Origin: a virus
Lineage: Duplodnaviria; Caudoviricetes
Virus record (IMG/VR): IMGVR_UViG_3300025645_000071
Coordinates: 1-63,180 of that record
Direction: 5' to 3' (one strand)
DNA length: 63,180 nucleotides
The notes under the pieces were generated by a model. That model did no database searches. It worked only from the letters and a program-made list of their open reading frames with translations, and was not told where the DNA came from. The position numbers and the translations under genes are program-made. Of this stretch, positions 1 through 63,180 are shown piece after piece; within the stretch, counting starts at the first letter, position 1, and each line of letters begins with the position of its first letter.

Positions 1-151
1 TTTTGTGTGTCTGTAAATTGTTTCATTTGATTTGGATTTTTTCGATTAGTATTTTAATGTTGCTTTCATCGCCTTCGTAGTATAGGTGCGGTAATTCGTC
101 ATCCTGACTGAATGTATTCGGATTAATATCTACTGTGCTATGCACATGCTT
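1..151. repeat. Terminal overlap (circular assembly), copy 1
   Basis: Identical to 63030-63180 except T127 vs C63156. The 151 bp length resembles a read-length overlap. Confidence 0.95.
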
Positions 152-298: not shown

Positions 299-477
299 TT
301 TGCTTGGTTTTCTAAGGTTTCTAATTGAAGACACAATCTGTCTAGAGTTGCCTCTGCATGACGTATACTTAGTTGTTGCTTCTTGATTTCATCTTTAGTG
401 CGGGCTATTAGGCCTGCTCGGTTTGTCTTCCACTCACGGAAATCTCGTTCTGATTGAGTTAAACTAATGTTATCCAT
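295..477 (-). CDS. Small coiled-coil early protein
   Basis: 60 aa with a heptad-like pattern; upstream AAAACCAATTCAA-ATG. Confidence 0.7.
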   Translation of the reverse strand: MDNISLTQSERDFREWKTNRAGLIARTKDEIKKQQLSIRHAEATLDRLCLQLETLENQAK

Positions 478-559
478 TTGAATTGGTTTTTAATTTGCGC
501 TAATGTATAAGGTTTTATTTCTATATCCTAATTTGGTTCCGACTTTCTCGGTATTAAGT

Positions 560-1393: not shown

Positions 1394-1436
1394 CTGAAAT
1401 TGGTTTTGAATGAGAGGGGATTTGCATATTTAAGTT

Positions 1437-10201: not shown

Positions 10202-12321
10202 TGTCTGTATTACTAAACATAAAAGAATATGAAGAACCTGCTGTTAAGATTTGTCCCAACGGTACGGAAGGTGAGCTTATCGAACTCGGTGGGTTACTCA
10301 TTTGTCTTCCGAAAAGGCCGCCGAAGAAAGAAATTTTCGGATATAAAGAATCAGACTCTATGCAAATGTGGAGAAGGTTATCTATGCCGACGGAATTGTC
10401 TCGTATTCGTTCTATGGATGAGTGGGCAGAAATGCCAAGGGAGTTTAGAGAGAGGTTTCGTCCATATGTCGAGGAAGAGTTTAGGCGTAGGCGTGAGGGT
10501 TTTTGGTTTTATAACAACGGTGCAGCTACATATATTACGGGGAGGCATTACATGATGCTACAATGGACTAAGCTAGATATTGGCTATCCATATTATTTAA
10601 ATTTTCAACGTGAAATATTTTTACACATGGCTGCTTGTGAGGCTGACCCTCGTTGTATCGGTCAGCTTTACACTAAGTGTCGTCGCTCTGGGTATACCAA
10701 TATATGCTCTGCCGTACTTGTTGATGAGGCTACACAAGTTAAAGACAAGCTTATGGGGATACAGTCTAAGACTGGTAAGGATGCACAAGAAAACATATTT
10801 ATGAAAAAGGTTGTTTTTATGTTTAGGAACTACCCTTTCTTCTTTAAACCTATTCAAGATGGTACAACTAACCCACGTATGGAGTTAGCATTTAGAGAGC
10901 CATCAAAGCGTATTACCAAGAAAAACAAAACAGCTCAAACTGGTGAAGCGCTTAATACAGTGATTAATTGGAAAAACACAACTAATAATGCATATGATGG
11001 TGAGAAGCTGCACATATTATATTTAGACGAAGCAGGAAAATGGGAAAAACCAACAGACATAAGAGACGCTTGGAGGATACAGAGGACCTGTTTGATCGTC
11101 GGAAGAAAAATCGTGGGAAAGGCTCTAGTGGGAAGCACAGTAAACCCTATGTCAAAAGGCGGAAAAGAATACAAGAGTTTATGGGAGGATTCGAATCCTT
11201 CGGAGAGGAACAAGAATGGGAGGACTAAAACTGGGTTATACAGATTGTTTATATCAGCAGAGCAGTCTCTTGAAGGCTTCTTTGATTTATATGGGAATCC
11301 AGTTTCTGAAGATCCAGAAAATCCTATAGAAGGTATAGATGGTGAAGATATAGTTATTGGCTCTAGAACATACCTTAAGAATGAACGATCTTCTCTAAAA
11401 GATAATGCTTCTGAAATGAATGAGGTTATACGTCAATTTCCTTTTACTTCAGACGAAGCATTTAGAGACAGTATAGAAGGAAGCGTATTTAATATTGGAA
11501 AGATATACGAACAAATAGAATATAACGATGAGCTTTTTCCAAACCCTGTAGTTACTGGTAACTTTATATGGAAAGGAGGTAATCAAGATACCGAGGTTGT
11601 GTTTAGTCCAGATCCAAACGGCAGATTTAAAATATCCTGGATGCCACCTGTAGATTTAAGAAACAAAAAAGCAGCTATAAGAGGCAAAAAAATAGCCCCT
11701 AACTCTCATATGGGTTGCGGAGGAGTTGACTCTTATGATCTTGATGCTACTGTAGACGGCAGAGGCTCTAAAGGAGCATTACATTTATATAATAAATTTC
11801 ACATGGAGCACCCTTCTAATATGTTTGTATTAGAATATGCCTCTCGCCCTCCTCTTGCAAAAATATTTTATGAAGACGTACTTATGGCTGCTGTGTTTTA
11901 TGGGTATCCTATCTTAATTGAGAACAATAAGTACGGCATCGCAAGATACTTTGAATCAAGGGGTTACGACGGATACCTAATGGACAGACCTAAACACTTA
12001 AAAACTGGTACGGCTAAAGTTAAAGTAAAAACAAAAGGGATCCCTTCAAACTCTCAAGATATAATTCAAGCTCATGCTCACGCTATAGAGTCTTACATAC
12101 ACGAACATGTTGGGGTAAATCATGAGGCCAATAAAGTTGGTAATATGTATTTTAATAAAACTCTTGAAGATTGGATAGGTTACAAAATTGATAATAGAAC
12201 TAAGTTTGACCTTACTATTAGTTCTGGTTTAGCTTTACTTGCTGCTCAAAAGGTTAAAAAGAAAAAAGTTAGCAGCTTTGATGAAAGGAAGTTTTTTAGG
12301 CGATACAAAGTCGTCGGCTAA
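10198..12321 (+). CDS. terL: Terminase large subunit
   Basis: Walker A-like KCRRSGYT, Walker B LYLDEAGKW, VGST coupling motif, RNase H-fold GGVDSYD...IENNK...FDLTISSG. Confidence 0.92.
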   Translation: MMSVLLNIKEYEEPAVKICPNGTEGELIELGGLLICLPKRPPKKEIFGYKESDSMQMWRRLSMPTELSRIRSMDEWAEMPREFRERFRPYVEEEFRRRREGFWFYNNGAATYITGRHYMMLQWTKLDIGYPYYLNFQREIFLHMAACEADPRCIGQLYTKCRRSGYTNICSAVLVDEATQVKDKLMGIQSKTGKDAQENIFMKKVVFMFRNYPFFFKPIQDGTTNPRMELAFREPSKRITKKNKTAQTGEALNTVINWKNTTNNAYDGEKLHILYLDEAGKWEKPTDIRDAWRIQRTCLIVGRKIVGKALVGSTVNPMSKGGKEYKSLWEDSNPSERNKNGRTKTGLYRLFISAEQSLEGFFDLYGNPVSEDPENPIEGIDGEDIVIGSRTYLKNERSSLKDNASEMNEVIRQFPFTSDEAFRDSIEGSVFNIGKIYEQIEYNDELFPNPVVTGNFIWKGGNQDTEVVFSPDPNGRFKISWMPPVDLRNKKAAIRGKKIAPNSHMGCGGVDSYDLDATVDGRGSKGALHLYNKFHMEHPSNMFVLEYASRPPLAKIFYEDVLMAAVFYGYPILIENNKYGIARYFESRGYDGYLMDRPKHLKTGTAKVKVKTKGIPSNSQDIIQAHAHAIESYIHEHVGVNHEANKVGNMYFNKTLEDWIGYKIDNRTKFDLTISSGLALLAAQKVKKKKVSSFDERKFFRRYKVVG

Positions 12322-50495: not shown

Positions 50496-51365
50496 TTAAT
50501 TTAAATAGTTTATTAAGACCGTGTGACGAGATGAATGCTTGATTCGCTTCAAAGCACGTTCACGTATTTGTCTCACTCTCTCTGATGATAAATCAAATAT
50601 CTCTGATATCTCTGTATTAGATTTAGGGTGATCTCCGTCAAGGCCAAACGACAGCCTTAAAGTAGCGCTTTCTCTTGGGGTCAACCATCTTAGGCAAGAT
50701 TCTATTTCATGTCTTAAGCTTTCATTTAGCAGCTCTTTGTCAGGATCTAACGCATACTTGTCGGGCATAAGATCACCTACTCTGTTTGAACCAGCTTCAT
50801 CCTGAGATACAGGCATATCTAAACTTACATGTTTATTGGAATTTTTAAGAATTAATCTAACATCTGCTACATTCATGTTTAACTCTGCAGCAATTTCAGA
50901 CTCTGTAGGTGGTCGTTCATACTTTTGCTCAAGCCTTGAGTAAGACTGCTTGATTTTTATTAAGGCCCCTATTTTGTTTTGCGGCAACCTTACCATCCTA
51001 GAGTGGTCGGACAATGCAGATAATATATTTTGTCTAATCCACCACACAGCATACGAGATAAATTTAAAGCCACGGGTTTCGTCGAATCTTTTGGCTGCAC
51101 GTATCAGACCTAAATTACCTTCGCTAATAAGATCTGGAAGGCTTAATCCTTGATTTTGATACTGTTTAGCTACAGATACAACGAATCTTAAATTTGCTCT
51201 TGTCAGTCTATGTAGAGCTTGTTGATCGCCATCTCTAATTTTTCTCGCTAACTCTACTTCTTCCTTAACTGTAATTAATTCTTCTTTAGTAACGTCAGAT
51301 AAATATCTGTCTAGACTTGGCTGTGACCTGTCTGTTATTTGCTTTGTTATTTTAAGCTGTCTCAT
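50496..51365 (-). CDS. rpoD: RNA polymerase sigma-70 factor, Bacteroidota primary-sigma-like
   Basis: MRQLKITKQ, ANLRFVVSVAKQY, DLISEGNLGL, FDETRGFKFISYAVWWIRQ, ERVRQI. Confidence 0.93.
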   Translation of the reverse strand: MRQLKITKQITDRSQPSLDRYLSDVTKEELITVKEEVELARKIRDGDQQALHRLTRANLRFVVSVAKQYQNQGLSLPDLISEGNLGLIRAAKRFDETRGFKFISYAVWWIRQNILSALSDHSRMVRLPQNKIGALIKIKQSYSRLEQKYERPPTESEIAAELNMNVADVRLILKNSNKHVSLDMPVSQDEAGSNRVGDLMPDKYALDPDKELLNESLRHEIESCLRWLTPRESATLRLSFGLDGDHPKSNTEISEIFDLSSERVRQIRERALKRIKHSSRHTVLINYLN

Positions 51366-58327: not shown

Positions 58328-58555
58328 TTAATATGTTTGTTTAGTCCCATACCTAGGTGGGTTTTTAGCTGATTGTTTAGTTATATACTCAGTACGTTGC
58401 TTCTCAGCTGAACCCGACTGATTACGAAGGACTTGTATGCCTTCCTCAATAGCGTATACTCTAGCTCTAGTGTTAATGTCATCCATAATTTCGTAAAGAG
58501 ATTTGTTTGATTCTAAAAGAGTACGCAACTCTTTAACTCCTATTAGTCTTTTCAT
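58328..58555 (-). CDS. Hypothetical protein
   Basis: 75 aa ORF downstream of the tRNA-like element. Confidence 0.6.
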   Translation of the reverse strand: MKRLIGVKELRTLLESNKSLYEIMDDINTRARVYAIEEGIQVLRNQSGSAEKQRTEYITKQSAKNPPRYGTKQTY

Positions 58556-58569
58556 ATTAAATTAATTAG

Positions 58570-58664
58570 TGTGAGTGGGGGAATCGAACCCCCTGCTAAA
58601 CCAAATCAAAAGCAGTCAGATCGGGTGGGTACATCACTCCCCAGCGGATCATCCAGACACTCAC
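58570..58664 (-). ncRNA. tRNA-like non-coding RNA (non-canonical)
   Basis: Minus strand reads GTGAGTG...CTGCT-TTTGATTTGGTTT-AGCAG-GGGG-TTCGATT-CCCC-CACTCAC-A. Acceptor-like stem and canonical T-loop; no canonical D or anticodon arm; no encoded CCA. Confidence 0.7.
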
Positions 58665-58669
58665 TATGT

Positions 58670-59278
58670 TTAATGCATAATCAATCCAACCTTGTTTGAA
58701 CGATTAAACCATTTTGTTGCCATAACATCAGACTCCATAGCGCAAACATAACCTGCACTATTTAAGGACTCCATGTTGTCAAATATTTTACAATGTCTAT
58801 CCTTAGAGTAATCAATTAAATCATCACGAGTACCACCTTCACTATATATGATATCGAAATTGCTCGGCATATCTTTATCAAGAAATAAAGGAATAGATTT
58901 TGTGTACGAATAGAACTTAACATCAGGTAAAGCCTTAGCTATAGCCACCCATTTGTTTATGTATTTTTTAGAGTAATAATCTCCCGAATCGTGAACTCTA
59001 AGCATATCAACTTTTTTCTTTTTAATCTCTGCTGTCATTTTATCTACAAATGAATCGCATTTTGTCGCTAAGTATCTGTGTTGAAATGCAGGTGATACGT
59101 TACTCCAAACATACGCACCTTTTTGAGCATAACAATATTTTGCACAAGCCCCAGCAAAAGGACAAGTTCTTTTACCTTCTGAATCTTCGAACGCAGGTAT
59201 CCCAAAATTAAATACTCTCCGTCCAATAATCTTACTAGTCTTTTTTAGCTTAGTGTTTTGTGTTATTAAATGTGGCAT
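58670..59278 (-). CDS. GP88-like (radical-SAM-related) protein
   Basis: CPFAGACAKYCYA, LRVHDSGDYY, FYSYTK. Confidence 0.8.
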   Translation of the reverse strand: MPHLITQNTKLKKTSKIIGRRVFNFGIPAFEDSEGKRTCPFAGACAKYCYAQKGAYVWSNVSPAFQHRYLATKCDSFVDKMTAEIKKKKVDMLRVHDSGDYYSKKYINKWVAIAKALPDVKFYSYTKSIPLFLDKDMPSNFDIIYSEGGTRDDLIDYSKDRHCKIFDNMESLNSAGYVCAMESDVMATKWFNRSNKVGLIMH

Positions 59279-59294: not shown

Positions 59295-59346
59295 TGTAGT
59301 GTATTATATATAATTCATACTGAATTATTATATATAATACACTACA
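59295..59346. promoter_or_regulatory. AT-rich bulged hairpin element H4
   Basis: TGTAGTGTATTATATATAA (59295-59313) pairs with TTATATATAATACACTACA (59328-59346). Core TTCA-TAC-TGAA. Confidence 0.7.
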
Positions 59347-60645
59347 ATAACCAGTCTTTTTCTTCGTTCATGTCGTTCCAGTATCCACCAGCACAATCTT
59401 TAGAGCAGAACTGCCCTTCTTTTTCTACTCGCTCACTAGCGCAGTAATCGCAGTAGTGTTCTTCGTCTTCATTCTCCATCTTTACTTTCTTTTAATTTAT
59501 TAATTTCTATTTGTAAATTCTCAGCCATTATACGCCACTGCATAGCCGCTTTGAGTAAGCTAGTTTTGGTGTTGGCTTTGAGGGCTGACTTAACTTGATC
59601 TTTTGTCCACCCATCTAGTGGGTTAAATTCTTTTTCCATGTTAGCAGTATAATGATGTTGGTATATTCTCCTGTAATTCTCGTATCTTCTCGATGTGCTT
59701 GAACCATGTGTTTGTAGTCTCCGCTTCCTCCACCATGTTTTTCCAATCCTCCTCGTTCATACATTCGTGTATGGACTCTTCTAATCCTTGTAGTTGGTAC
59801 AGCATCTCGTCGTTGTAGTCATACCCTCCGTATTCGTGGAAGATATCATAACATTGACCGCTGAGTTTGTTTACTCTTTCTTTGTGTATATTCATGTTTA
59901 GTTATGCTATTAGGTGAGTTGATTCACTTATTGTATTCTTTAATTATATACAGTCCATACATTCATTTATATCTTTATCCTCATTGAATGCGACCCTGTC
60001 TGTGCGATCACCACATGAATCACAGGTATACTTGCTTAAGTATACTAAACGATCAACTTCGTTGTATTCGTTATCGTTCATCGTTCATTAGTTTACACAT
60101 GTTACGTCTTAGTCTACCTACTTTGAGCTCATACATATTTACTCTTGCTGAATAAGCAAGTATGGTTTCTTGTAGATGTTTGTTCTTTTCTGTTAGTTTT
60201 TCTATATCAGTCATGCTTTCTTATTTGATTTAATTGTCTGCCTATATCGAGTATGTTCTCACCCTCTGCCATACCTAAGTTATAGTGTTGCCTCCATGCA
60301 TCGCATGAAAGGAAGTTGTTGAACCAATCAAGGTACATAGCTTCTATCTGTGTGTTAGTGTAGTTCATGCTTTCTTGTGTTCTAAAGGTCTGTTCTGTTG
60401 TAGTATTTCATCTTGATTTGGTTTATTGTTTGTACCGATTACTAGCATCTCTGCAAATTCCTGCATATTAAATGATGCGAACCCTGATTTTGTTTTTGGT
60501 TTACGTTCACTCATAGTCTTGGTAAAAAATGTTCGTCATCTCTCATGATTCCTGAGATATCGTGTATGATGTCTTGAGATCTAAGGTTTGTTATCTCCTC
60601 AATACGATTTGCCCATTCGATTAACTGCTTTTTACTTGATTCCAT
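59342..60645 (-). CDS. Cluster of small early ORFs (e.g. 59342..59479 Zn-finger-like, 59469..59639, 59641..59895, 60207..60368, 60365..60514)
   Basis: Manual translation gives tightly coupled 45-84 aa ORFs, e.g. HYCDYC...CSKDC and YLDWFNNFLS. Confidence 0.55.
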
Positions 60646-61935: not shown

Positions 61936-62126
61936 GCTAATTCGTTTTCTAGGTTTTCTAATGCTAACTTGTATCCGTAGTTAATTGCCATTTGCATAAG
62001 TAATATGTCACTACAACCATTGTTTGCGTTAGCAAATGATTCTAGGTCTTCTCTAGTGTGTGGTGTAGCTACGATGCCTCTATTTAGCTTACGCATCTCT
62101 TCCTTGATGTGGTTTTGTATGTTCAT
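61932..62126 (-). CDS. Hypothetical early protein
   Basis: 64 aa coupled ORF. Confidence 0.65.
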   Translation of the reverse strand: MNIQNHIKEEMRKLNRGIVATPHTREDLESFANANNGCSDILLMQMAINYGYKLALENLENELA

Positions 62127-62128
62127 GT

Positions 62129-62347
62129 TTATTTGATTATGGTTTTTACTTCCTTGATTACATTCATGATGTGTTCGCTTACGTCTATATCACTAGCTAC
62201 ACACTCTTCATAGTGGTCTTCTTCGTGAGGCTCTAGGTAGTCTACCAGCCTTTCTGTAAGCATCGACATTTCCTCAATTTGAGAACGCAGTTCTGTTATT
62301 AGTCTGCCTTGCGCTTCAATGGTTTTGAATAATTCGTTGTTTGACAT
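62129..62347 (-). CDS. Hypothetical early protein
   Basis: Upstream AAAACCAAATCAAA-ATG. Confidence 0.7.
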   Translation of the reverse strand: MSNNELFKTIEAQGRLITELRSQIEEMSMLTERLVDYLEPHEEDHYEECVASDIDVSEHIMNVIKEVKTIIK

Positions 62348-62366
62348 TTTGATTTGGTTTTAAGAG

Positions 62367-62418
62367 GTAGTGTATTATATATATAATTCATACTGAATTA
62401 TTATATATATAATACTAC
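62367..62418. promoter_or_regulatory. AT-rich bulged hairpin element H3
   Basis: GTATTATATATATAA (62372-62386) pairs with TTATATATATAATAC (62401-62415). Core TTCA-TAC-TGAA; near-identical to H4. Confidence 0.7.
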
Positions 62419-62440
62419 TACTCTCTAAGGGTTTGACGTT

Positions 62441-63055
62441 TTACTGATTTAGGTATTCTAATTCCTCTTCAATTTCATCGCTATCCATATACTCTCGCAA
62501 GTATTGGTGTATCATCCAATCATCTTCGGTTTTGAATAGCTTCGCATCGGTGTAGCCACCTCTAGCATCACAACCTCCGTGTATCTGTAAGAGCAGGTAT
62601 GTTTCCCCGTCCATATCTAGCCATGCACCTTGTAAGATTTGGGATAGGTCGCTATCTCCGTTGTATGTATTGAACTGATGTTTACTTTCCATACCTATCA
62701 ACTCAAGGAAGTCAGCACCTGCTTGTGATACTCCGTAAGCAATATCTCCATTCCAATCATCACAGTCAGTATTCCGTGCGTTAAAATTAACGCACAGGTG
62801 ATCGAGTGTAAGTTCGCTTAGGTAGTGAAAGATTGACACTCTACGTTCATACTCAGTGTGTACCTTTCCATCTTTGTCAGTCCATTCAGACTTTTCGATG
62901 GATTGCTCTTCCTCATTATCAAAGTCCTCGATAGTCTTGGCTTGGTTTCTTGACCAATTCCTACCATACGCACCGCCTGAATCACATACGTGGCTACCTG
63001 TGTTTTCCGTAAGCATAGCATACACTAGCTTTTGTGTGTCTGTAAATTGTTTCAT
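62441..63055 (-). CDS. Conserved early phage protein
   Basis: MLTENTG...DSGGAYGRNW...LLQIHGGCDARGGYT. Confidence 0.75.
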   Translation of the reverse strand: MKQFTDTQKLVYAMLTENTGSHVCDSGGAYGRNWSRNQAKTIEDFDNEEEQSIEKSEWTDKDGKVHTEYERRVSIFHYLSELTLDHLCVNFNARNTDCDDWNGDIAYGVSQAGADFLELIGMESKHQFNTYNGDSDLSQILQGAWLDMDGETYLLLQIHGGCDARGGYTDAKLFKTEDDWMIHQYLREYMDSDEIEEELEYLNQ

Positions 63056-63180
63056 TTGATTTGGATTTTTTCGATTAGTATTTTAATGTTGCTTTCATCG
63101 CCTTCGTAGTATAGGTGCGGTAATTCGTCATCCTGACTGAATGTATTCGGATTAACATCTACTGTGCTATGCACATGCTT
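63030..63180. repeat. Terminal overlap, copy 2
   Basis: Matches 1-151 with one mismatch. Confidence 0.95.

What the first reader, a model, noticed from the sequence alone, without database searches (positions are those of the whole stretch)
58570..58664. tRNA-shaped RNA whose loop is antisense to the start regions of the phage's earliest genes
Seen: a 95-nt minus-strand intergenic element with a perfect acceptor-like stem (GTGAGTG/CACTCAC, discriminator A) and a canonical T-loop (GGGG-TTCGATT-CCCC), but no normal D or anticodon arm. Just before the T arm is a stem CTGCT/AGCAG with the loop UUUGAUUUGGUUU. The 14-mer UUUUGAUUUGGUUU is the exact complement of AAACCAAAUCAAAA, which ends on the A of the AUG of gene 62129..62347. 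It also pairs partly with the starts at 63055 (CCAAAUCAAAUG, 10 contiguous nt), 477, 298 and 1393. The RNA and these mRNAs come from the same strand, so any pairing would be in trans. Established: tRNA-like folds can be cut out by RNase P/Z and are stable, and Bacteroidota initiate translation largely without Shine-Dalgarno pairing. Inference: a tRNA-scaffolded guide RNA made later in the early operon either shuts off translation of the first genes or acts as an adaptor that recruits ribosomes to them. I know of no described system like this. A vestigial GUA (Tyr) loop, ATGTACC, may hint at tRNA ancestry, but that is weak.
Basis: partly seen in the sequence, partly recalled or inferred. Interest (0 to 1): 0.88.

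Follow-up and report, generated by a model that had tools for sequence, protein, structure and literature searches.

The report
tRNA-shaped phage RNA, early-gene antisense loop
A group of uncultured phages, probably of marine and freshwater Flavobacteria-type hosts, carries a conserved tRNA-shaped small RNA gene whose exposed loop is complementary to a short box sitting where a ribosome-binding site would be in front of the phages' first-transcribed genes, which points to an RNA switch for early-gene translation not found described in the searches run.

Summary
Window 58570-58664 (-) has a 7-bp acceptor stem, a T arm and a hairpin with a 13-nt U-rich loop, and no tRNA or Rfam model accepts it. 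It is not a one-off. Pattern scans and a covariance model found 35 distinct relatives, plus a 75-nt cloverleaf-like variant, in related phage contigs. 97% of cells pair, and 9 of 21 pairs change on both sides. One relative has a normal tRNA-Arg in the same slot.

The exact 14-nt complement at the AUG of gene 62129-62347 is real. It is the best case of a wider pattern. A box, AAACCA(A/U), lies mostly 6-7 nt upstream of the AUG in 47 of 150 genes upstream of the element in seven genomes. It occurs before 0 of 79 genes downstream. The invariant loop core UGGUU is its complement.

The loop pairs better with these start regions than with controls in 7 of 7 genomes. It beats shuffled loops at 0.015 or below in only 4 of 7. 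Lineage-specific co-variation is modest (p about 0.014).

Best reading (0.4): a processed, stable tRNA-like RNA that pairs with the early-gene box and most likely shuts off their translation. No expression data exist. Function is inferred.

The parts
58570..58664 (-). tRNA-like RNA gene, 95 nt (whole element)
   Evidence: Sequence read. Covariance model R1 scores it 84.7 bits, E 1.6e-19. It lies between the stop of the GP88-family ORF (58670) and the ATG at 58555.
58658..58664 (-). Acceptor stem, 5' strand GTGAGTG (pairs with 58571-58577 CACTCAC; discriminator A at 58570)
   Evidence: 100% of cells pair in 35 sequences. Pair 6:67 is UA in 28, CG in 6 and UG in 1. G3:C70, not G3:U70.
58651..58657 (-). 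Linker TCTGGAT with an invariant GG; a D-loop remnant without a D stem
   Evidence: T10 G11 G12 are invariant in 33 of 33 sequences. The canonical tRNA-Arg in the same slot of L004 has ACTGGAT in its D loop. The D-loop role is inferred.
58619..58650 (-). Middle domain. Closing helix GATC/GATC (58647-58650 / 58619-58622); inner G-rich hairpin TGGG/CCCA (58640-58643 / 58626-58629); loop GAGTGATGTA (58630-58639)
   Evidence: MFE fold. The inner hairpin has 4 of 5 pairs with changes on both sides. The closing helix differs between subgroups but stays paired: AATC/GATT, TCGGTC/GACCGA, AGCATGA/TCATGCT, GCACG/CGTGC (read). The domain is enlarged by an extra hairpin in many relatives.
58593..58615 (-). 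Hairpin P3: stem CTGCT/AGCAG with the 13-nt loop TTTGATTTGGTTT (58598-58610). This is the proposed pairing (seed) loop
   Evidence: The stem is 100% paired. Pairs are GC 23 / AU 7 / GU 4, and CG 28 / UA 1. The loop is open in the MFE folds of W, G001, G002 and L005. The TGGTT core is invariant or nearly so in 33 sequences.
58578..58592 (-). T arm GGGG-TTCGATT-CCCC (4 bp here, 5 bp in relatives)
   Evidence: Pair 49:65 is GC in 18 and AU in 16, and is missing in the window. A DNA run holds a variant with one extra base in this C run (table 4).
62347..62360 (-). Exact 14-nt complement of the P3 loop, ending on the A of the ATG
62129..62347 (-). 72-aa early ORF whose start region is the best target
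   Evidence: ORF list. Relatives in 5 loci. No Pfam or PHROG family.
62140..62144 (-). AACCA box 13 nt upstream of the ATG at 62126
484..488 (-). AACCA box 6 nt upstream of the ATG at 477
305..309 (-). AACCA box 6 nt upstream of the ATG at 298
1401..1405 (-). AACCA box 7 nt upstream of the ATG at 1393
63055..63064 (-). 10-nt partial complement CCAAATCAAA, ending on the A of the ATG of ORF 62441-63055 (repeated at 26-35 in the terminal repeat)

Best explanation
The element is the gene of a conserved, structured, tRNA-shaped small RNA. It belongs to a group of related uncultured phages whose nearest cultured relatives infect Flavobacteriia.

How it probably works:
- It is transcribed as part of the long early operon, at the border between the cluster of small first-transcribed genes and the replication genes (inferred from position).
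- Its acceptor stem and T arm let the host's tRNA-processing enzymes cut it out and keep it stable (inferred).
- Its U-rich hairpin loop sits in the anticodon-arm or variable-arm position. It pairs in trans with an A-rich box, AAACCA(A/U)..., that lies at Shine-Dalgarno-like distance in front of about a third of the genes upstream of the element. Complementarity is shown; pairing in vivo is inferred.
- The most economical outcome is occlusion of the ribosome-binding region. That would give a delayed shut-off or tuning of the earliest genes as the RNA accumulates.
- Excision would also cut the early transcript into two halves.
For: Structure:
- 35 distinct relatives. 97.0% of 722 cells pair, and 9 of 21 pairs change on both sides. 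0 of 500 shuffles reach this, and slid controls give 45-64% paired. The model-independent MAFFT alignment gives 94.2% and 6 such pairs.
- MFE folds of four members (the window's RNA, G001, G002 and L005) give the same four-helix junction with an open P3 loop; two further members folded (G005 and the 75-nt G006-type variant) did not.

Slot:
- The element is intergenic and on the same strand as its neighbours. No promoter-like or terminator-like site was found on its strand next to it.
- L004 holds a canonical tRNA-Arg(UCU) in the same place after the GP88-family gene.

Box:
- AACCA lies within 24 nt upstream of 47 of 150 genes upstream of the element and 0 of 79 downstream, in seven genomes (Fisher p 1e-10; the genomes are related, but each shows the same direction).
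- On the late strand it occurs before 0-1 starts per genome.
- The spacing to the ATG is 6-7 nt in 20 of 44 distinct start regions.

Complementarity:
- Exact 14-mer in the window.
- The P3 loop's duplex energy with upstream start regions is better than with random windows (p 3e-6 to 3e-2), downstream-gene starts and, in 6 of 7 genomes, late-gene starts (G004 p 0.12).
- The fraction of 200 shuffled loops doing as well is 0.000, 0.005, 0.005 and 0.015 in W, G002, G006 and G005.

Co-variation:
- Lineage-specific long matches next to ATGs occur in L269 (13 nt), L210 (11 nt), L288 (10 nt), L281 (10 nt, twice) and G005 (10 nt).
- Permuting 11 loop types against their genomes gives p 0.014.

Co-occurrence:
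- Relatives without the element show no box enrichment: G010 1 of 28, G011 0 of 38, G012 2 of 25, G014 2 of 36.
- G007, whose variant lacks the UGGUU loop, has 0 of 11.
Against: - No transcript, processing or abundance data exist. No RNA run holds the region.
- Both partners are low-complexity (U-rich loop, A-rich start regions). Shuffled loops do as well in 8-12.5% of trials in G001, G003 and G004.
- The start regions of G010, which has no element, also score 0.7-1.5 kcal/mol better than random with these loops.
- The own loop is best in only 3 of 7 rows of the energy matrix. Its rank among 11 loop types is 1-2 in 4 rows and 3-8 in 7 rows.
- In contigs with the window's own loop type (L189, L194, L224, L243, L249, L233), the best site found in the 2-3.5 kb of upstream sequence held is only 9 contiguous nt.
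- G013 has no W-type element in the 76% of its genome that is held, yet shows 4 of 31 boxes.
- 103 of 150 upstream genes lack the box.
- The window's second-best site is inside an ORF.
- UUGGUU is also a common tRNA D-loop sequence (recalled, not tested), so the core match alone could be a structural coincidence.
- What normally reads the box (ribosome, protein, rRNA) is unknown.
Confidence: 0.4

Rival explanations
1. Processing and stability element only ('tRNA punctuation'). The tRNA-like fold exists to be cut by RNase P and a 3' tRNA-processing nuclease. That separates the earliest-gene mRNA from the replication-gene mRNA, or caps mRNA ends. The conserved loops serve folding or protein binding, and their complementarity to the AAACCA box is a by-product of U-rich against A-rich composition plus a D-loop-like GG motif.
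For: - The element sits exactly at the border where the box-bearing genes end, 5 nt after a stop codon and 14 nt before the next ATG.
- The slot can hold a normal tRNA.
- Relatives carry other odd tRNA-like forms with quite different middles: the L021 type, G011, and the G014 minihelix with an encoded CCA.
- Loop specificity tests are weak.
- tRNA-like modules in YrlA RNAs can be cut by RNase P and receive CCA (PMC4201824, passages read).
Against: - It does not explain why TGGTT and the flanking U-rich loop stay conserved while the stems covary.
- A GG-bearing D-loop remnant is already present in the 5' linker.
- It does not explain the exact 14-mer, or the lineage-specific 10-13-nt matches next to ATGs.
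- It does not explain why the box is enriched only in genomes that have the UGGUU loop.
Confidence: 0.27
2. Ribosome adaptor (surrogate anti-Shine-Dalgarno). The tRNA-shaped RNA binds the small subunit, and its loop pairs with the AAACCA box. This recruits or positions ribosomes on the earliest phage mRNAs in a host whose own anti-SD is not used.
For: - The box sits at SD-like spacing: 6-7 nt in 20 of 44 distinct start regions.
- The box is confined to phages that carry the loop.
- The loop lies at the anticodon-arm position in the 75-nt G006-type variant.
- Flavobacterium johnsoniae ribosomes fail to recognise SD in vitro (PMC7797042, start of the abstract seen in the listing).
Against: - The RNA is encoded downstream of the genes it would activate, so the first mRNAs would be made before it.
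- There is no evidence of ribosome binding.
- Occlusion is the usual outcome of pairing at a start region (established knowledge of bacterial sRNAs).
- 103 of 150 upstream genes lack the box.
Confidence: 0.1
3. A working but non-canonical tRNA, or a tRNA decoy. It would be charged and used in decoding, or it would soak up a host tRNA-targeting nuclease or modification enzyme.
For: - Intact acceptor stem and T arm under purifying selection.
- It occupies a tRNA slot.
- The acceptor plus T-arm pattern equals that of tRNA-His genes in other phyla: 89 of 101 matches in genome contigs and 71 of 122 in metagenome contigs.
- GUG is kept in the inner hairpin loop of nearly all members.
Against: - No 7-nt anticodon loop with U33/R37. 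The loops are 8-10 nt and 11-19 nt.
- No D stem.
- Base -1 is A and the discriminator is A, not the bacterial HisRS identity pair G-1/C73 (the identity rule is recalled).
- No tRNA model accepts the window's element.
- No tRNA model accepts the relatives either: Rfam in E-value mode matches none of four relatives, and ARAGORN calls none in the loci holding members.
- ARAGORN's only calls are 5 L024-type members, read as 96-nt 'tRNA-Gln' with a mispaired acceptor.
Confidence: 0.12
4. A decaying tRNA pseudogene without function.
For: No detector calls it a tRNA. The window copy has lost T-stem pair 49:65.
Against: 35 distinct copies keep 97% pairing through compensatory changes, and the loops are conserved.
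Confidence: 0.03

Closest known systems
Canonical phage-encoded tRNA genes
   Same: 7-bp acceptor stem, discriminator, T arm with a UUCGAUU loop, and a GG in the D-loop position. It is co-transcribed in an operon. The homologous slot in L004 holds tRNA-Arg(UCU).
   Different: No D stem and no 7-nt anticodon loop. It has an extra variable middle domain and an 11-19-nt U-rich loop. ARAGORN and Rfam reject it.
tRNA-like domain of tmRNA
   Same: Acceptor plus T arm with a D-loop-like linker and no D stem, followed by a helix that closes a variable insert. The likeness of the linker to tmRNA's is recalled, not tested.
   Different: G3:C70 instead of G3:U70 in 35 of 35 sequences. No conserved tag reading frame: loop lengths differ by 1-2 nt between relatives. 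No tmRNA call by ARAGORN or Rfam.
YrlA / bacterial Y RNAs (tRNA mimics; PMC4201824)
   Same: A roughly 100-nt ncRNA, also found in phages, with a tRNA-like module. In that family the module can be processed by RNase P and CCA-tailed (passages read).
   Different: No Ro60/TROVE gene in the phage. No Rfam match. Here the 5' and 3' ends form the acceptor stem, as in a real tRNA.
Trans-acting base-pairing sRNAs that occlude ribosome-binding sites; phage T4 RegA and RegB as functional analogues for early-gene shut-off (recalled)
   Same: A conserved, exposed single-stranded seed complementary to the start regions of a set of genes. A shared motif in early mRNAs would allow collective control.
   Different: The scaffold is a tRNA shape rather than an Hfq-type sRNA. 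The target box is not an SD. RegA and RegB are proteins. Nothing here has been tested experimentally.
tRNA-linked regulatory RNAs (3'ETS-leuZ sponge, MALAT1 mascRNA, herpesvirus tRNA-miRNA units; all recalled)
   Same: They use tRNA-processing enzymes to release or stabilise a non-decoding RNA.
   Different: In those, the regulatory part lies outside the tRNA fold. Here the proposed seed is a loop inside the fold.

Membership tests
Canonical tRNA (Rfam RF00005 / ARAGORN) | 7-bp acceptor stem with a discriminator base | tested here: met
   GTGAGTG/CACTCAC + A. 100% paired in 35 sequences.
Canonical tRNA (Rfam RF00005 / ARAGORN) | T arm: 5-bp stem and 7-nt loop T-T-C-R-A-N-N | tested here: met
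   TTCGATT loop. The stem is 5 bp in relatives. In the window it is 4 bp, or 5 if the last G of P3 is borrowed.
Canonical tRNA (Rfam RF00005 / ARAGORN) | D arm with a 3-4-bp stem | tested here: not met
   Only a 7-nt linker TCTGGAT. The 75-nt G006-type variant may have one, CCCA-CTGGGA-TGGG.
Canonical tRNA (Rfam RF00005 / ARAGORN) | 5-bp anticodon stem with a 7-nt loop (U33, purine 37) | tested here: not met
   The P3 loop is 11-19 nt and the inner hairpin loop is 8-10 nt.
Canonical tRNA (Rfam RF00005 / ARAGORN) | Recognised by tRNA models | tested here: not met
   ARAGORN calls none in the loci with members, except 5 L024-type copies force-fitted as 96-nt tRNA-Gln with a mispaired acceptor.
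Canonical tRNA (Rfam RF00005 / ARAGORN) | Aminoacylation and decoding | not testable with these tools
   Needs biochemistry.
tmRNA | G3:U70 alanine identity pair | tested here: not met
   G3:C70 in 35 of 35 sequences.
tmRNA | Tag reading frame with a resume codon and a stop | tested here: not met
   No frame is conserved across W, L002 and L003, whose loops differ in length by indels. ARAGORN finds no tmRNA.
tmRNA | Match to the Rfam tmRNA models | tested here: not met
   Only 13.2 bits to tmRNA_permuted, over the T arm alone. Nothing in four relatives.
YrlA / Y RNA | Encoded beside a Ro60 (TROVE) gene | tested here: not met
   PF05731 has no match in the 63-kb record. The controls were positive in 2 genomes.
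YrlA / Y RNA | Match to the Rfam Y RNA models | tested here: not met
tRNA-His (possible ancestor) | Acceptor plus T-arm sequence of tRNA-His | tested here: met
   Pattern matches called as tRNA: 89 of 101 (genome contigs) and 71 of 122 (metagenome contigs) are tRNA-His(GTG). The hits are in non-Bacteroidota MAGs.
tRNA-His (possible ancestor) | G-1 and C73 identity elements (rule recalled) | tested here: not met
   Base -1 is A and the discriminator is A.
Trans-acting base-pairing sRNA (functional class) | Conserved, exposed single-stranded seed | tested here: met
   The P3 loop is open in the MFE folds. The TGGTT core is conserved in 33 sequences.
Trans-acting base-pairing sRNA (functional class) | Complementarity to target start regions beyond chance | tested here: met
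   7 of 7 genomes against random windows, and 4 of 7 at 0.015 or below against shuffled loops.
Trans-acting base-pairing sRNA (functional class) | Seed and target co-vary between lineages | tested here: inconclusive
   Permutation p 0.014, but the own loop is best in only 3 of 7 rows by energy.
Trans-acting base-pairing sRNA (functional class) | Discrete stable transcript and a regulatory effect | not testable with these tools
   No RNA holder was listed.

The most novel reading that the evidence does not exclude
The phage supplies its own 'anti-Shine-Dalgarno' on a tRNA-shaped carrier. The RNA would dock on the host small ribosomal subunit like a tRNA. Its oversized anticodon-position loop (…AUUUGGUUU…) would pair with the AAACCA box 6-7 nt upstream of the AUG of the earliest phage genes. 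This would create a private, phage-specific initiation signal in a host lineage that does not use SD pairing. The same pairing off the ribosome could later silence those genes.
Probability: 0.1. Interest if true: 0.95.

Novelty: new variant of a known kind. Interest (0 to 1): 0.72.

Why it matters
Phage small RNAs are barely explored outside a few model phages, and how phages of Bacteroidota control translation without Shine-Dalgarno pairing is an open question.

This finding gives three concrete, testable objects:
- a new structured RNA family not in Rfam, with at least 35 variants showing covariation;
- a previously unnoticed box at SD-like distance, restricted to the first-transcribed genes of these phages;
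- a sequence-level link between the two.

If the link is functional, it would be a tRNA-scaffolded regulator, or even an adaptor, of translation initiation. The four literature searches run turned up no such mechanism; their listings and one paper's passages were read, not whole texts.

Even the sober reading is useful for annotating marine and freshwater phage genomes: a tRNA-like punctuation element that splits the early operon.

Tried and rejected
- **Second loop.** The inner hairpin loop GUGAUGU is complementary to ACAUCAU. ACATC does sit directly before the ATG of 1-4 early-strand genes in six genomes (W, G001, G003, G004, G005, G009) and before none on their late strands; in G010, which lacks the element, it is 0 of 28 on the oriented strand and 1 of 56 on the other. 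The duplex test of this loop against upstream start regions was not better than shuffled loops, except in 1 of 6 genomes. The idea was dropped.
- **Tyr (GUA) remnant.** It is not conserved.
- **Mini-tmRNA.** There is no G3:U70, no conserved frame and no detector call.
- **attP or host tRNA fragment.** The genome-contig scan with the T-arm plus acceptor pattern found only tRNA-His genes and fragments in non-Bacteroidota MAGs, and no family member.
- **Cultured relatives.** There is no nucleotide match in 50,697 phage records. The 116-nt query matched only T arms of ordinary tRNAs.
- **Broad loop-plus-T-loop pattern.** The scan of viral contigs returned mostly tRNA-Gln(UUG), whose anticodon loop reads TTTTGGT. 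It added only the G006-type contig.
- **RNAalifold on the MAFFT alignment.** It proposed pairing of the loop's UGGU with the 3' strand of the middle-domain helix. That pairing shows almost only one-sided (wobble) changes, 2 of 33 both-sided at one of its four pairs, and competes with a covarying helix. It was not adopted.
- **Energy matrix of all loops against all genomes.** The own loop was best in 3 of 7 rows, so it is not convincing on its own.
- **Expression.** No RNA holder was listed. Contigs of two metatranscriptome runs from a study that holds the phage DNA laid only seven short pieces of 36-61 nt, with mismatches, on the 6-kb stretch.
- **rRNA test.** I tried to test whether the box is complementary to host 16S rRNA.
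- **Supplements.** Supplements of papers were not consulted.
Full report
**Observation**

The window is a whole IMG/VR virus record of 63,180 bases, which CheckV rates complete. Its first 151 bases repeat its last 151 with one mismatch. The minus-strand operon that leaves the window at base 1 therefore continues at 63180.

- acceptor stem GTGAGTG/CACTCAC with discriminator A;
- T arm GGGG-TTCGATT-CCCC;
- just before the T arm, hairpin CTGCT/AGCAG with the loop TTTGATTTGGTTT.

ARAGORN finds no tRNA or tmRNA in the window, and Rfam finds nothing at gathering thresholds. In permissive mode the only tRNA-clan match is tRNA-Sec at 18.8 bits against a threshold of 47.

The 14-mer AAACCAAATCAAAA, the complement of the loop plus one stem base, occurs once elsewhere. 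It lies at 62347-62360 (-) and ends on the A of the ATG of ORF 62129-62347. With up to one mismatch there are 3 matches, one being the element's own opposite strand. 100 shuffles give a mean of 0.11, and none reaches 3. The third match (60411-60424) lies inside ORF 60365-60514 and is not a start.

**It is a conserved, structured RNA family**

The upstream ORF (58670-59278) is a Pfam GP88-family protein. Thirteen related loci were found through it. Two of them carry the element right after the gene. One, L004, carries a canonical tRNA-Arg(UCU) in the same place.

Further members came from several searches:
- Pattern scans of viral contigs added members.
- One scan of metagenome contigs also added members.
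- Covariance model R1 then found one more, L005.

Altogether there are 35 distinct sequences of 95-124 nt. A 75-nt variant with a different acceptor and T-stem sequence has the same kind of loop (L029 and L076). R1 does not detect that variant.

Pair counts:
- On the model-fitted alignment, 97.0% of 722 cells form pairs. 9 of 21 pairs show changes on both sides, against 0 of 500 shuffles. Slid controls pair at 45-64%.
- On the plain MAFFT alignment the figures are 94.2% and 6 pairs.

Two caveats apply. The scan patterns fixed the T arm and the 3' acceptor strand, so their invariance is partly by construction. The 5' strands and the N and R positions were free. The model-fitted alignment also leans toward the model's structure.

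The common architecture is a four-way junction:
- an acceptor stem;
- a 7-nt linker with an invariant GG (TCTGGAT);
- a middle domain closed by a helix that differs between subgroups yet stays paired, containing a G-rich hairpin with a G-GUGAU-GU loop;
- hairpin P3 with an 11-19-nt U-rich loop that always contains (A/U)UGGUU;
- the T arm.

MFE folds of four members (the window's RNA, G001, G002 and L005) reproduce this junction with the P3 loop open; the folds of G005 and of the 75-nt variant did not. Rfam in E-value mode matches none of four relatives.

**Setting**

The nearest cultured phages infect Maribacter, Cellulophaga, Flavobacterium and Nonlabens. This rests on tblastn with the primase-helicase, at 34% identity at best. 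A Flavobacteriia host is therefore an inference.

The minus-strand block begins near window position 1,700 and runs down to base 1. It continues across the terminal repeat at 63180 and ends at 50496. It starts with many small ORFs of unknown function. It continues after the element with a PDDEXK-like protein and the primase-helicase, and ends with a sigma-70-family gene. No promoter-like or terminator-like site lies on the element's strand next to it. The element sits 5 nt after a stop codon and 14 nt before the next ATG.

**The box**

Reading the start regions of six whole relatives showed that (A)AAACCA(A/T) recurs just upstream of ATGs on the element's strand.

- With a simple ORF-based gene call, AACCA lies within 24 nt of the start on the element's strand as follows: W 5 of 37, G001 12 of 44, G002 8 of 34, G005 6 of 25, G006 7 of 27, G003 4 of 33, G004 3 of 36. 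On the other strand it lies before 0-1 starts per genome.
- AAACC, AACCA and ACCAA are among the most enriched 5-mers there in W, G001, G002, G005 and G006. They are not in G003 or G004.
- Within the early block, all box-bearing genes lie upstream of the element: 47 of 150 upstream against 0 of 79 downstream. The genomes are related, so the Fisher p of 1e-10 overstates independence, but each genome shows the same direction.
- The box ends 6-7 nt before the ATG in 20 of 44 distinct start regions. A second group lies at 13-16 nt. The box thus sits at Shine-Dalgarno-like spacing.
- Relatives without the W-type element show no enrichment: G010, with the real tRNA, 1 of 28; G011 0 of 38; G012 2 of 25; G014 2 of 36.
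- G007, whose variant lacks the UGGUU loop, has 0 of 11. G013 has 4 of 31 with no element in the 76% of its genome that is held.

**Loop against box**

The invariant loop core UGGUU(U) is the complement of (A)AACCA.

- RNAduplex energies of each genome's P3 loop with the -30..+3 windows of upstream genes are lower than with random windows of the same block (p 3e-6 to 3e-2). They are also lower than with downstream-gene starts in all seven genomes and with late-gene starts in six of seven (G004 p 0.12).
- Against 200 shuffled loops, which control for U-richness, the real loop is matched or beaten in the following fractions: W 0.000, G002 0.005, G006 0.005, G005 0.015, G004 0.080, G001 0.095, G003 0.125.

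**Does each loop track its own genome?**

Several lineage-specific long matches lie next to ATGs:
- 14 nt in the window;
- 13 nt in L269;
- 11 nt in L210;
- 10 nt in L288, in L281 (twice) and in G005.

Permuting 11 loop types against their genomes gives p 0.014 for the summed run length.

Other results weaken this. By duplex energy the own loop is best in only 3 of 7 rows. The own loop's rank is 1-2 in only 4 of 11 rows. Contigs with the window's loop type show only 9 contiguous nt in the 2-3.5 kb of upstream sequence held. I rate co-variation as suggestive, not established.

**Mechanism**

Shown:
- a conserved tRNA-shaped fold;
- an exposed, conserved loop;
- a box confined to upstream genes at SD-like spacing;
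- complementarity between the two beyond composition in most genomes;
- co-occurrence of box and loop.

Inferred:
- co-transcription;
- excision by tRNA-processing enzymes, and stability;
- pairing in vivo, and its outcome.

I favour occlusion of the start region, a delayed shut-off of the earliest genes. The RNA is made after, and from the same transcript as, its targets, and pairing at a start region normally blocks initiation. Excision would also cut the operon at the point where the box-bearing genes end. The punctuation reading and the pairing reading are therefore not exclusive.

The GG that would dock on the T loop is already provided by the invariant 5' linker. That linker matches the D loop of the real tRNA in L004. 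This weakens the idea that the loop's GG is merely structural.

**Comparison with known systems**

- It is not a member of the tRNA family: there is no D stem and no 7-nt anticodon loop, and all detectors reject it.
- It is not a tmRNA. It has G3:C70, no tag frame and no model match.
- It is not a YrlA. The phage has no TROVE gene and Rfam gives no match.
- Its acceptor plus T arm equals that of tRNA-His genes of unrelated phyla, and GUG persists in the inner loop. That hints at tRNA-His ancestry, but base -1 and the discriminator are both A.
- It works most like a trans-acting sRNA on a tRNA scaffold.
- Four full-text searches found no description of such an RNA or of the box. I read the listings, and one paper's passages (PMC4201824).

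**Limits**

- There are no RNA data.
- Gene calls are heuristic.
- The genomes are related.
- The metagenome scan was truncated.
- The rRNA alternative could not be tested.

Noticed in passing
window 62367-62420 (-) and 59296-59344 (-); also L027 and L019: A nearly perfect AT-rich palindrome of about 50 nt (…TATTATATATATAATAATTCAGTATGAATTATATATATAATA…). It lies directly upstream of the best-target gene and of the GP88-family gene. In G005 it occurs three times, once immediately in front of the tRNA-like element. It may be a promoter or operator, or an RNA hairpin. It gives a weak chance match to a miRNA-precursor model.
   Followed up: partly
window 1-151 and 63030-63180: A 151-nt direct terminal repeat with one mismatch, although the record is classed 'linear'. 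The early operon therefore runs across the record's ends.
   Followed up: yes
window 50496-51365 (-): The last gene of the early block encodes a sigma-70-family protein with regions 1.2, 2, 3 and 4. It is presumably the phage's own sigma factor for later genes.
   Followed up: no
L022, L023, L088, L132, L140; G014 (L404:~11400-11520); G011 (rc ~44071): Other phage contigs carry different unannotated tRNA-like pieces. Some are 'minihelices': an acceptor stem, a short linker containing UGGUU, and a T arm. The G014 copy has an encoded CCA. G011 has a longer odd form. ARAGORN calls none of them.
   Followed up: no
early-strand starts in W, G001, G003, G004, G005, G009: ACATC lies directly before the ATG of 1-4 early genes per genome and before none on the late strand of those six genomes (in G010, which lacks the element, 1 of 56 on the other strand). 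It is often combined with the AACCA box 13-16 nt upstream.
   Followed up: partly
late-strand start regions of W, G001, G003, G004, G005: TTTGC and ATTTG are enriched within 24 nt upstream of late-gene starts. This fits the Bacteroidota -7 promoter motif TAnnTTTG (recalled) and short leaders.
   Followed up: no
L157:453-536 (-) in G004; L174:873-947 (-) in G010: Some relatives also carry ordinary tRNA genes: tRNA-Tyr(GTA) in G004's earliest-gene cluster and tRNA-Arg(TCT) in G010. The window has none.
   Followed up: yes
metagenome and genome loci such as L184, L195, L211, L241, L273, L360: Many contigs hold only the 3' half of a tRNA-His gene with the same T arm and acceptor. They may be attachment sites of integrating elements or contig ends, and are unrelated to the family.
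   Followed up: no
window 58576: One DNA run holds a variant with one extra base in the C run of the T arm (depth 14.2 of 19.3, one contig). That would restore a 5-bp T stem as in the relatives (table 4).
   Followed up: no
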